Shown in pieces: positions 4,512-5,960 of a stretch of 32,000 bases of DNA. Within the stretch, counting starts at the first letter, position 1, and the number at the start of each line of letters is the position of its first letter. The stretch covers positions 1,216-33,215 of the forward strand of contig JAPMTX010000164.1 of NCBI GenBank assembly GCA_026552855.1, read 5' to 3'. The notes beneath the pieces are model-generated. The model worked only from the letters and a program-made list of their open reading frames with translations. It did no database searches and was not told where the DNA came from. The DNA comes from Candidatus Methanoperedens sp. Its GTDB lineage: Archaea; Halobacteriota; Methanosarcinia; Methanosarcinales; Methanoperedenaceae. Position numbers and translations under genes: made by a program.

Positions 4512-5960
4512 ATGGATAGGAGAGATAGCTTTGGTTACGTAAGCTCAATGTTGAGATTCGACAAACAAAAACATCCAGCCCGCTTTATTACGGGTGCAAC
4601 GGTTTTATTTTTGATTCTTGCAGGCTCGCCTTTTTTCAATTCGGGTACAAATGGAGTAGATGCCGCATCCAACCCTTATGCTTCTCCATCCATTTCCAAT
4701 CTTGCAAACTCTGGACCCACATCCAGCGGCTCTTTTATTTTCTGGGATACAAACATATCCAGCAATAACAGGGTATATTACGGTCTGAACGAAGCTGATG
4801 TCAATAACCTGATAAATGGAAGCTGGAGTGTCTGGGATAATAACACATTTAACGTAAGTCTCAGGTTATCAGGTCTATCTGCGAATACCACTTACTATTA
4901 TAAGCCTGAGAGTGTGTCTGATGTTGCCAATGATTCAGTGCCAGCGAGCGTCTTAGTGACTCTCAAACCCGGAGTTTGGACAAGTCCCTCGGAGTACATG
5001 GTCAGCCCGCCCGGATGGATGACTTCTCCTGTGAACTTCCGTACAGTCAACATATCAGCAGCGATTCTGGGCGGCAACGGTCGTTATATTTCCAATCTGT
5101 CCCTGGAGGCTGTTATCTATAATAGCACAGGCATCGAGATAGGAAGAACGAACCTGAGCGGTGCAGGTCCTTATTCAGGGAACTTCGTTCTGCCTGATTA
5201 TTTGGATGAAGGTGGATATGTTGTAAGGATTACCGGTTATACCGGGATTGCAGGTGAGTTCAGTGTTCTTAGATGGGGCTGTGCAAACTGCCACAGCGCC
5301 GGTGGAACCAATTATCCATCTACGTTTGACTCCGCATCTGTTCATCCCAAACACTTCGACACCACACAGATAAATACAGTACACGCAATGACAGGCTCAG
5401 GCAGTCCACCGGATGGAGTAACCTACACGTCTACATCTGAGTGTCCTAGCTGCCATTCTCCCCCAAGACCCCCTAACTGGGTAAACCACCCAGCGAGTAA
5501 TCAATGCAGCAACTGCCATAAGTCCCCATCAGGTGGAAATGCGGCTCTTGCATGTGTGAACTGCCACGGCGATATTACGACAGGTCAAAACGCCCTATCC
5601 CCGCGCTACGGTCAGGATAGACATTATTTGAATGCGACATGTAATGACTGCCATAATAACCTGACCAGTCTGATAACTAAACCGAGCTGTACAACCTGTC
5701 ATCCGAGACCCGGATCAATCCTGAACAATACGACTATCCCCAATTCTATTGAGAATACATCACACTCCCTCAGCCAGACCGTATCATGCGGTCTGTGCCA
5801 CAACCGCGAGCATGATGTGAAGTCCCTCCAGACACTGGATGCAACTGTATGCAGGACATGCCATCCAGCCATAAACCATGATGGAGGGAACCAGTGCACG
5901 ACCTGCCACGGAGGCGACCCGCATCAGATAACGTTCGCTGGCGGTAATACCTGTATTGAA
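4512..5960. repeat. Left arm of a ~1.4-kb inverted repeat (partner 25970..27401)
   Basis: Spot checks: 5544..5594 vs the reverse complement of 26340..26390 gives 50/51 identical. The next 60 nt give 58/60. 4621..4676 vs the reverse complement of ~27245..27300 gives 53/56. Confidence 0.8.

What the first reader, a model, noticed from the sequence alone, without database searches (positions are those of the whole stretch)
4512..5960. A ~1.4-kb near-identical inverted repeat (4512..5960 vs 25970..27401) forms the 5' halves of two convergently oriented giant cytochrome genes 20 kb apart
Spot-checked stretches are 95-98% identical at DNA level (50/51, 58/60 and 53/56). A patch around heme motifs 2-3 is clearly divergent (HAMTGSGSPPDGVTYTSTSECPSCHSPPRPPNW vs VEHPDPGNFITSTLQCGDCHSLHYPDW). 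That mosaic pattern suggests ongoing gene conversion rather than a single old duplication. Homologous recombination between the arms would invert the ~20-kb segment between them. That inversion would swap the 3' portions, and therefore the promoters, of the 12-heme and 26-heme genes in frame. This is a possible switch for which long cytochrome is expressed.
Basis: partly seen in the sequence, partly recalled or inferred. Interest (0 to 1): 0.6.

Follow-up and report, generated by a model that had tools for sequence, protein, structure and literature searches.

The report
Gene-conversion mosaic in inverted cytochrome paralogs
Two facing multiheme cytochrome genes of a methane-oxidising archaeon (Candidatus Methanoperedens) share an old, roughly 80%-identical front module that keeps exchanging short patches by ordinary gene conversion, and nothing shows that the 20 kb between them ever flips.

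Summary
The inverted repeat is real (4568-5965 vs 27348-25969, 20,003 nt apart). It is not near-identical: 78% identity with gaps, 82% without. Three short tracts reach 93-96%, and the longest exact match is 53 bp.

It is the shared N-terminal module of a 569-aa 12-heme gene and a 1070-aa 26-heme gene. The module holds a signal/anchor helix, two beta-sandwich domains and 10 heme sites. The genes converge. The short one is not giant.

The gene-conversion reading is well supported:
- Inside the tracts the two copies are closer to each other (3-7% different) than to their orthologues (15-30%).
- Synonymous difference there is 0.10, against 0.5-0.6 elsewhere.
- The 5' and 3' ends of the module still group by gene type.
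- Three other Methanoperedens lineages carry their own tracts at other positions.

The switch reading has no support:
- All four lineages with both genes on one contig keep the same flank-to-gene arrangement.
- All five long homologues keep the long-type 5' end.
- No recombinase gene lies in the window.

A crossover would be in frame, so a rare inversion stays possible. The scan has reported the same kind of conversion tract between inverted paralogues on other DNA. Verdict: an ordinary mechanism in a new gene family.

The parts
4512..6221 (+). Gene A ('short'): 569-aa, 12-CxxCH multiheme cytochrome. It has an N-terminal hydrophobic helix, an FN3-like and an Ig-like beta-sandwich domain, 10 hemes of the shared module, and a 2-heme C-terminal cap.
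   Evidence: ORF and motif count. Pfam Cytochrome_C7 and Cytochrom_CIII score above cut-off and Pur_ac_phosph_N lies at 63-135. The AF2 model shows beta-sandwiches at 73-135 and 146-254 with moderate confidence only.
24189..27401 (-). Gene B ('long'): 1070-aa, 26-CxxCH multiheme cytochrome. It has the same N-terminal module followed by about 590 aa of further heme cassettes.
   Evidence: Orthologues of 1067-1079 aa exist in Methanoperedens.
4568..5965 (+). Left arm of the inverted repeat, codons about 19-485 of gene A.
   Evidence: Identity is 78% with gaps and 82% without.
25969..27348 (-). Right arm of the inverted repeat, codons about 18-478 of gene B.
5529..5731 (+). Conversion tract 3 (partner 26405-26203): 96% identical and covers heme motifs 4-6. 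Both copies carry long-type sequence, so B was the donor and A the recipient.
   Evidence: Identity is 195/203. Exact runs are 53, 31 and 52 bp. pS is 0.10 against 0.5-0.6. The tree groups the two G000 copies, bootstrap 90. Both copies are nearest to J1_long, G009_long and G015_long.
4623..4750 (+). Conversion tract 1 (partner 27293-27166): 94% identical, covering the end of the signal/anchor helix and the start of the FN3-like domain. Both copies are slightly nearer to short-type orthologues, so A is tentatively the donor.
   Evidence: Identity is 120/128. The paralogue distance is 0.06-0.07, against 0.14-0.30 to orthologues.
5124..5213 (+). Conversion tract 2 (partner 26786-26697): 93% identical, inside the Ig-like domain. 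The direction is not resolvable.
   Evidence: Identity is 84/90 with a 45-bp exact run. pS is 0.14 against 0.27-0.48. Distances to the two types are ambiguous.
5390..5500 (+). Hypervariable patch (partner 26522-26433) around heme motif 2: 50% identical with indels. It is as diverged between orthologues as between paralogues.
   Evidence: Nucleotide distances are 0.4-0.55 in nearly all pairs. pN is 0.37-0.43, against 0.05-0.17 elsewhere. In G015 and J1 this same patch has been homogenised.
4175..4511 (+). Upstream region of gene A. It is divergent from the 425-aa cytochrome gene and unrelated to the upstream region of B.
   Evidence: The best local alignment between the two upstream regions is 18 nt, score 21.
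27402..28310 (-). Upstream spacer of gene B, 909 nt, downstream of the radical SAM gene. It is unrelated to the upstream region of A.
6315..12344 (+). Gene C: 2009-aa, 48-CxxCH cytochrome, 93 nt downstream of A on the same strand. In an inversion it would move together with A's 3' part.
   Evidence: Pfam hits.
6090..6219 (+). C-terminal cap of A. It is a direct repeat of the C-terminal cap of gene C (12213-12342, 78%). This serves as an internal control, because it evolves orthologously with no sign of conversion.
   Evidence: Repeat family D4. Cap identities are 77-85% between orthologues and 66-71% between paralogues in three genomes.

Best explanation
The two arms are the shared N-terminal module of two paralogous secreted or anchored multiheme cytochrome genes of Candidatus Methanoperedens. 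The module has a signal/anchor helix, an FN3-like and an Ig-like domain, and ten c-type heme sites. The duplication that produced the short (12-heme) and long (26-heme) genes is older than the split of at least four Methanoperedens lineages.

Since then the copies have diverged to about 75% DNA identity. Short stretches of about 90-300 bp are copied from time to time from one copy into the other by non-reciprocal homologous recombination (interlocus gene conversion). This has happened in both directions and independently in each lineage. In this genome there are three tracts, and the youngest and longest (5529-5731) was copied from the long gene into the short one.

The 5' ends, with their unrelated promoters, and the 3' junctions of the module have stayed true to gene type. 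The 20-kb interior has kept its orientation in every lineage examined. The recombination has therefore been resolved without crossover, or crossover products did not persist.

Shown: the mosaic, its synonymous-site signature, its lineage specificity, and the conserved arrangement. Inferred: the mechanism (RadA-type homologous repair between ectopic copies) and the absence of low-frequency inversions.
For: - Full alignment and identity profile.
- Organism and family: homologues are named Candidatus Methanoperedens, and Pfam cytochrome families are matched.
- Sliding-window distances: the G000 paralogues differ by 0.03-0.07 in the tracts, against 0.13-0.31 to their orthologues. At the 5' end the figures are 0.38 against 0.17-0.25, and at the 3' end 0.24-0.25 against 0.09-0.19.
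- Independent tracts: G009 at 4929-5105 (0.07), G015 at 5343-5645 (0.05-0.09), J1 at 4752-4871 (0.08) and 5346-5549 (0.10-0.15).
- Synonymous difference is 0.10 in the tract, against 0.53-0.64.
- Permutation test on runs of shared polymorphic sites: P = 2e-4, 4e-3 and 2e-3 for G000, G009 and G015.
- Partition trees.
- Donor direction.
- Control: the C-terminal cap shared by A and C evolves orthologously.
- Gene order and orientation are collinear in G009, G015 and J1.
- 5' end type always goes with gene type.
Against: - Orthologue distances are themselves heterogeneous. Between G000 and J1, synonymous difference is 0.11-0.16 for the interior glycosylation genes but 0.43-0.54 for the two cytochrome genes. 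Exchange between lineages also shapes these genes and blurs the dating of tracts.
- Bootstrap support on such short partitions is moderate (72-96).
- All sequences are consensus contigs of metagenome assemblies. Minority recombinant or inverted molecules would be invisible.
- The donor of tracts 1 and 2 is weakly resolved or unresolved.
Confidence: 0.82

Rival explanations
1. Invertible switch. Recombination between the arms reversibly flips the 20-kb interior. This exchanges the promoters and 5' ends between the 12-heme plus 48-heme unit and the 26-heme unit, so that subpopulations express different long cytochromes.
For: The geometry is right. The arms are inverted, in the same reading phase, and a crossover in the 53-bp exact match gives two open chimeric genes of 1077 aa (26 hemes) and 562 aa (12 hemes). 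The upstream regions are unrelated, so different promoters would be exchanged. Conversion tracts prove that the arms do meet in recombination.
Against: - The flank-gene-interior arrangement is the same in all four lineages that carry both genes on one contig. It is also the same in separate contigs of the same JGI sample.
- All five long homologues carry the long-type 5' end.
- There is no recombinase or invertase gene in the window.
- The arms are only 78-82% identical with a longest exact run of 53 bp. This is unlike the short perfect sites of site-specific systems or the long identical repeats of RecA-dependent ones.
- The contigs of three or four independent assemblies run through both arms without breaking.
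- The two N-modules are functionally near-equivalent, so the chimeras would differ little as proteins.
Confidence: 0.07
2. No conversion. The high-identity tracts are simply the most constrained parts of the heme-binding core, and the mosaic reflects uneven purifying selection after a single old duplication.
For: Tract 3 covers three CxxCH motifs of a c7-like triheme unit that is well conserved at the protein level across the family.
Against: - Synonymous sites are homogenised too: pS is 0.10 against 0.5-0.6.
- The same tract is 20-30% diverged between orthologues.
- Tracts lie at different positions in G009, G015 and J1. In two of those lineages they include the patch that is the least conserved part of the protein.
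Confidence: 0.03
3. Assembly artefact. Short-read assembly of a metagenome bin mixed reads of the two loci or of co-occurring strains, creating apparent shared tracts or a wrong orientation.
For: The genome is a 211-contig bin with 6.5% estimated contamination. Shared 45-53-bp words could join the two loci in a de Bruijn graph with small k.
Against: - Path switching at shared words would swap segments, not make them identical.
- The own genome holds no other copy or alternative junction contig.
- Four independent assemblies give the same architecture, each with its own tracts.
- Tract edges are graded with scattered mismatches, as expected of older conversions.
Confidence: 0.04
4. Recent import. 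One copy acquired the tracts from another Methanoperedens strain by homologous exchange, and the similarity to the paralogue in the same genome is coincidental.
For: Synonymous divergence between G000 and its closest relative J1 varies four-fold along the island. This shows that exchange between lineages occurs here.
Against: The nearest sequence to each tract in the data is the paralogue in the same genome (0.03-0.07), not any homologue from another lineage (at least 0.08, and mostly above 0.11). The pattern recurs within four genomes.
Confidence: 0.04

Closest known systems
Concerted evolution of the inverted tufA/tufB genes of Salmonella enterica and E. coli (Abdulkarim & Hughes 1996; Hughes 2000; cited from my own knowledge, papers not read here)
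   Same: Two paralogues lie in inverted orientation on one chromosome and exchange sequence by homologous, non-reciprocal recombination. The same substrate can in principle give an inversion of the interval between them.
   Different: The tuf genes are kept almost identical along their whole length, and inversions were observed experimentally. Here the copies are about 75% identical outside short tracts, conversion is patchy and rare, and no inversion was seen in four lineages.
Long-lasting gene conversion between duplicated mtrA genes of methanogens (PMC4632066) and recurrent concerted evolution of prokaryotic paralogues (PMC6053082); abstracts seen
   Same: Archaeal or prokaryotic paralogues within a genome are more similar to each other than to orthologues because of repeated conversion.
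   Different: Those cases concern core metabolic or translation genes, mostly tandem or in the same orientation. This case is a partial, domain-limited mosaic in extracellular cytochromes with different C-terminal architectures.
Multiheme c-type cytochromes of Methanoperedenaceae implicated in extracellular electron transfer (PMC10874420, read; Leu et al. 2020, bioRxiv 10.1101/2020.02.06.936641, and PMC10542353, both only listed)
   Same: Same organism group and protein class. These are large, many-heme secreted cytochromes in clusters, and several are up-regulated on electrodes or metal oxides.
   Different: PMC10874420 has no occurrence of 'inversion' or 'paralog', and none of the titles and abstracts listed mentions this short/long pair or recombination between cytochrome paralogues. 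No solved structure or curated family matches either protein beyond generic heme domains.
Programmed inversion systems (Hin/Gin/Fim invertases, shufflons; RecA-dependent sap inversion of Campylobacter fetus; from my own knowledge)
   Same: Inverted repeats inside or next to the 5' parts of surface-protein genes, so that a flip re-assorts promoters or 5' modules with different gene bodies.
   Different: There is no recombinase gene nearby, the repeats are long and diverged rather than short and perfect, and no second orientation was found among relatives.

Membership tests
Interlocus gene conversion / concerted evolution of paralogues | In part of the sequence, paralogues of one genome are more similar to each other than to their orthologues. 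| tested here: met
   Distances are 0.03-0.07 against 0.13-0.31 in the tracts. The tract tree groups the G000 copies, bootstrap 90.
Interlocus gene conversion / concerted evolution of paralogues | Flanking parts keep orthologous relationships, meaning the duplication is older than the speciation. | tested here: met
   The 5' end and 3' end partitions group by short or long type across G000, G009, G015 and G022. Distances agree.
Interlocus gene conversion / concerted evolution of paralogues | Homogenisation includes synonymous sites, so it is not explained by protein constraint. | tested here: met
   pS is 0.10 in 5529-5705, against 0.53-0.64.
Interlocus gene conversion / concerted evolution of paralogues | Tracts are longer than expected from a random distribution of differences. 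| tested here: met
   Permutation of polymorphic sites gives P = 2e-4 (G000), 4e-3 (G009) and 2e-3 (G015).
Interlocus gene conversion / concerted evolution of paralogues | Dependence on the homologous-recombination machinery (RadA/RecA). | not testable with these tools
   This needs genetics, and the organism is uncultured.
Programmed or recurrent DNA inversion switch | Inverted repeats bound the segment, and a crossover keeps the genes intact. | tested here: met
   The arms are in the same phase, and simulated crossover products are open with 26 and 12 hemes.
Programmed or recurrent DNA inversion switch | Both orientations occur among close relatives or within the population. | tested here: not met
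   Among relatives, four lineages show one arrangement, and 5' end type matches gene type in all homologues.
Programmed or recurrent DNA inversion switch | A dedicated recombinase gene at or near the locus. | tested here: not met
   Pfam scans of 19 window ORFs of at least 147 aa (not including the radical SAM and mcrA ORFs at 28311-32000) and the ORFs of the spacer upstream of B show no integrase or invertase.
Programmed or recurrent DNA inversion switch | Repeats with long or perfect identity at the crossover site. | tested here: inconclusive
   The longest exact match is 53 bp, inside a 203-bp tract of 96%. The arms overall are 78-82% identical. That is enough for rare homologous exchange but not typical of a switch.
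Multiheme c-type cytochromes of Methanoperedens | Multiple CxxCH heme-binding motifs and matches to cytochrome c families above curated cut-offs. | tested here: met
   There are 12 and 26 CxxCH motifs. PF14522, PF02085, PF14537 and PF22113 score above cut-off.
Multiheme c-type cytochromes of Methanoperedens | Close homologues in Methanoperedens genomes. | tested here: met
   Homologues of 70-84% identity are named Candidatus Methanoperedens. The genus search finds the module in 10 of 49 genomes and the pair in 3.

The most novel reading that the evidence does not exclude
The arms are used, at low frequency, as a homologous-recombination switch. A minority of cells in the population carries the 20-kb interior flipped. 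The promoter and leader of the short gene then drive the 26-heme gene and its two small downstream cytochromes. The promoter next to the mcr/radical-SAM genes drives the 12-heme and 48-heme genes. Conversion tracts would be the non-crossover by-products of the same events. Consensus assemblies cannot exclude this.
Probability: 0.07. Interest if true: 0.65.

Novelty: new member of a known kind. Interest (0 to 1): 0.3.

Why it matters
Methanoperedens removes methane by passing electrons to outside acceptors through large multiheme cytochromes. How this protein repertoire evolves is poorly known. This locus shows that two of these genes share a docking or anchor-type front module, and that the module is partly kept in step by gene conversion while the heme-rich tails differ. 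Conversion tracts occurred independently in four lineages. It also shows that the arrangement next to the mcr genes is stable. For annotation and phylogeny it is a warning that trees of these cytochromes built from the N-terminal module will mix paralogy and orthology. As a mechanism it is ordinary.

Tried and rejected
- **Structure of the shared module.** The AlphaFold2 model of gene A from a 24-sequence alignment was poor: mean pLDDT 47.9, with the heme part below 50. No fold search was run on it.
- **Solved structures and NCBIfam.** The PDB search (run on gene B only) found no match at E <= 0.01, and NCBIfam (both proteins) gave only generic heme-domain matches.
- **Related promoters or leaders in the upstream regions.** None were found.
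- **Extra copies or alternative junction contigs in the own genome.** None were found. The only hits are A, B and the C-terminal part of gene C.
- **Literature.** The two Methanoperedens-directed searches listed nothing in titles or abstracts on recombination between Methanoperedens cytochrome paralogues, and the one paper read has no occurrence of 'inversion' or 'paralog'.
- **Failed sub-analysis.** One divergence computation ('B_long_Cpart') was mis-framed and is disregarded.
- **Junction pattern scan.** A pattern scan of metagenome contigs for a specific chimeric junction was considered.

Full report
**What is there**

The window is almost a whole 33,216-bp contig of a 3.4-Mb, 211-contig genome bin. 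Close homologues of its proteins are named Candidatus Methanoperedens. Three genes matter here:

| Gene | Coordinates | Size | CxxCH motifs |
|---|---|---|---|
| A (short) | 4512-6221 (+) | 569 aa | 12 |
| C (giant) | 6315-12344 (+), 93 nt after A | 2009 aa | 48 |
| B (long) | 24189-27401 (-) | 1070 aa | 26 |

A and B converge. Pfam places all three in multiheme cytochrome c families. It also finds an FN3-like (purple-acid-phosphatase N-terminal type) domain near the N-terminus of A and B.

**Checking the observation**

- The repeat finder reports four collinear inverted blocks, 4568-4912, 4925-5068, 5078-5384 and 5502-5965, paired with 27348-25969. They are 80-83% complementary, with 20,003 nt between the arms.
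- A gapped local alignment (4568-5940 vs 27348-25994) has 1095 identities in 1398 columns. That is 78.3% including 68 gap columns, or 82.3% without them.
- The repeat is therefore real and far beyond chance, because it is homologous coding sequence. It is not near-identical.
- High identity is limited to three tracts: 4623-4750 (94%), 5124-5213 (93%) and 5529-5731 (96%). The segments between them are 73-78% identical.
- The longest exact matches are 53, 52 and 45 bp.
- The first 56 nt of the genes and the upstream regions (337 and 909 nt) are unrelated.

**What the arms encode**

The arms cover codons 1-483 of A and 1-476 of B. They encode a hydrophobic N-terminal helix, two beta-sandwich domains and ten heme sites. 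In an AlphaFold2 model only the beta-sandwich domains were moderately confident (residues 73-135 and 146-254), and the overall mean pLDDT was 47.9.

A then ends with a two-heme cap. That cap is a direct repeat of the C-terminus of gene C (family D4). B instead continues with about 590 residues of further heme cassettes. The family is modular:
- The same module sits inside much larger proteins in other Methanoperedens genomes.
- Variants of about 800 aa carry a duplicated cap.

**Gene conversion**

I collected the module from relatives:
- G009 and G015 carry both genes on one contig.
- G022 and G014 carry a short gene.
- A JGI metagenome lineage, called J1 here, carries both genes on one 74,872-bp contig.

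Sliding-window nucleotide distances on a codon alignment give this picture for G000:

| Region | A vs B (paralogues) | A or B vs own orthologues |
|---|---|---|
| 5' end, 4512-4631 | 0.38 | 0.17-0.30 |
| 3' end, 5706-5939 | 0.24-0.25 | 0.09-0.21 |
| Tract around 5541-5705 | 0.03-0.05 | 0.20-0.31 |
| Tract 4632-4751 | 0.07 | 0.13-0.25 |

The pattern at the two ends is the one expected of an old duplication. Further evidence for conversion:
- Partition trees group sequences by gene type at the 5' end (bootstrap 96/87) and at the 3' end (72-91). They group them by genome in the tract (90 for G000; 73-88 for G015).
- The homogenisation is not protein constraint. Synonymous difference between A and B is 0.10 in 5529-5705. 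It is 0.53-0.62 for orthologue pairs in the same segment and 0.57-0.64 for A vs B in adjacent segments.
- A permutation test on the longest run of shared polymorphic sites gives P = 2e-4 for G000, 4e-3 for G009 and 2e-3 for G015.
- Each lineage has its own tracts: G009 at 4929-5105 (0.07); G015 at 5343-5645 (0.05-0.09); J1 at 4752-4871 (0.08) and 5346-5549 (0.10-0.15).
- In G015 and J1 the converted stretch includes the hypervariable patch, which remains unconverted in G000.
- Direction can be read for the main tract. Both G000 copies are nearest to the long genes of J1, G009 and G015, so B was copied into A. Tract 4623-4750 leans the other way, weakly.
- As a control, the C-terminal cap shared by A and C shows plain orthologous evolution: 77-85% between orthologues and 66-71% between paralogues.

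**The proposed inversion switch**

The arms are in the same reading phase. A crossover in the 53-bp exact match yields open 1077-aa (26-heme) and 562-aa (12-heme) chimeras. Promoter A would then drive the long gene and its downstream small cytochromes. Promoter B would drive the short gene followed by gene C.

Nothing indicates that this happens:
- Mapping all window proteins onto G009, G015 and J1 gives complete collinearity. The order is small-cytochrome flank, short gene, giant gene, glycosylation genes, NapC-like cytochrome, 260-aa and 147-aa cytochromes, then long gene. A radical SAM gene and mcr follow in G015 and J1; in G009 the contig ends about 1 kb before the long gene and the radical SAM gene lies on another contig.
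- An inversion fixed in any lineage would put a short-type 5' end on a long gene. All five long homologues have the long-type 5' end, and the close short homologues have the short-type one.
- No recombinase gene is present in the window.
- The own genome has no further copy or alternative junction contig.
- Contigs of the independent assemblies pass through both arms.

Three or four concordant consensus assemblies do not exclude a reversible, low-frequency flip.

**Distribution**

In 49 genomes of the genus, the module at E <= 1e-60 occurs in 10. The short/long pair occurs in 3: G000, G009 and G015. Several genomes have the short gene only.

**Comparison with what is known**

Patchy concerted evolution between inverted paralogues is a well-known outcome of homologous recombination.
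- The classic bacterial case is tufA/tufB (from my own knowledge).
- Archaeal and prokaryote-wide cases are described in PMC4632066 and PMC6053082.
- The scan's own earlier notes list several similar conversion tracts between inverted paralogues in other genomes.
- The two Methanoperedens-directed literature searches listed nothing in titles or abstracts about recombination between Methanoperedens cytochrome paralogues, and the one paper read has no occurrence of 'inversion' or 'paralog'.

I therefore file it as a new member of a known kind.

**Verdict**

- Observation: partly confirmed. The repeat is real, but its identity was overstated.
- Gene conversion: supported.
- Switch: unsupported and unlikely, about 7%.
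- Interest: modest.

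Noticed in passing
window 2897-30482 vs L044/L047 (JGI contig Ga0209749_1000305): Synonymous divergence between G000 and its closest relative J1 is very uneven along the island. It is 0.11-0.16 for the glycosylation genes (13832-20514), 0.24-0.38 for the PGF-CTERM protein gene, the small cytochromes and the radical SAM gene, and 0.43-0.54 for genes B and A. The island looks like a mosaic of histories, with exchange between lineages or replacement of cytochrome alleles.
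   Followed up: partly
window 6315-12344; G009:C43 21529-28641; L037 (G015); L044 11722-13728: The gene after the short cytochrome varies greatly in size between lineages: 2009 aa here, 2370 aa in G009, 1457 aa in G015 and 668 aa in J1. This suggests gain and loss of heme cassettes.
   Followed up: no
P0002, P0005 (homologues of gene A); L041/L042: Variants of the short gene of about 800 aa with 18 hemes carry a duplicated C-terminal cap. In that lineage an IS605 OrfB/TnpB-type gene and a GT2 gene are inserted just upstream of the short gene.
   Followed up: no
P0047 (1436 aa, 29 CxxCH): A more distant homologue joins a module whose 3' end is short-type to a long-type continuation. This is either an independent fusion or a product of recombination at the module boundary.
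   Followed up: no
G015:C233 46333-47789 (L023/L028): The short gene of G015, whose proteins are named Ca. Methanoperedens nitratireducens, is split between two reading frames near codon 75. It is a frameshifted gene or an assembly error. NCBI annotates only a 484-aa product (P0015).
   Followed up: no
window 27727-28032 (+) and 28096-28284 (+): Two small ORFs of 101 and 62 aa, with paired CxxC motifs of zinc-ribbon type, lie on the opposite strand in the 909-nt spacer between the radical SAM gene and gene B. Small genes are also called in the corresponding spacer of J1.
   Followed up: no
window 5390-5500 and 26433-26522: The patch around heme motif 2 is the fastest-evolving part of the module in all comparisons. 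pN is 0.37-0.43, against 0.05-0.17 elsewhere, and it has indels. It is possibly an exposed loop under diversifying or relaxed selection. Synonymous sites are saturated, so no ratio could be computed.
   Followed up: partly
G014:C114, G008:C1, G053:C18, G061:C64: The same FN3/Ig plus 10-heme module (55-61% identical) sits in the interior of much larger open frames of 1085 to 2656 aa in other Methanoperedens genomes. It is therefore a mobile building block and not only an N-terminal one.
   Followed up: no
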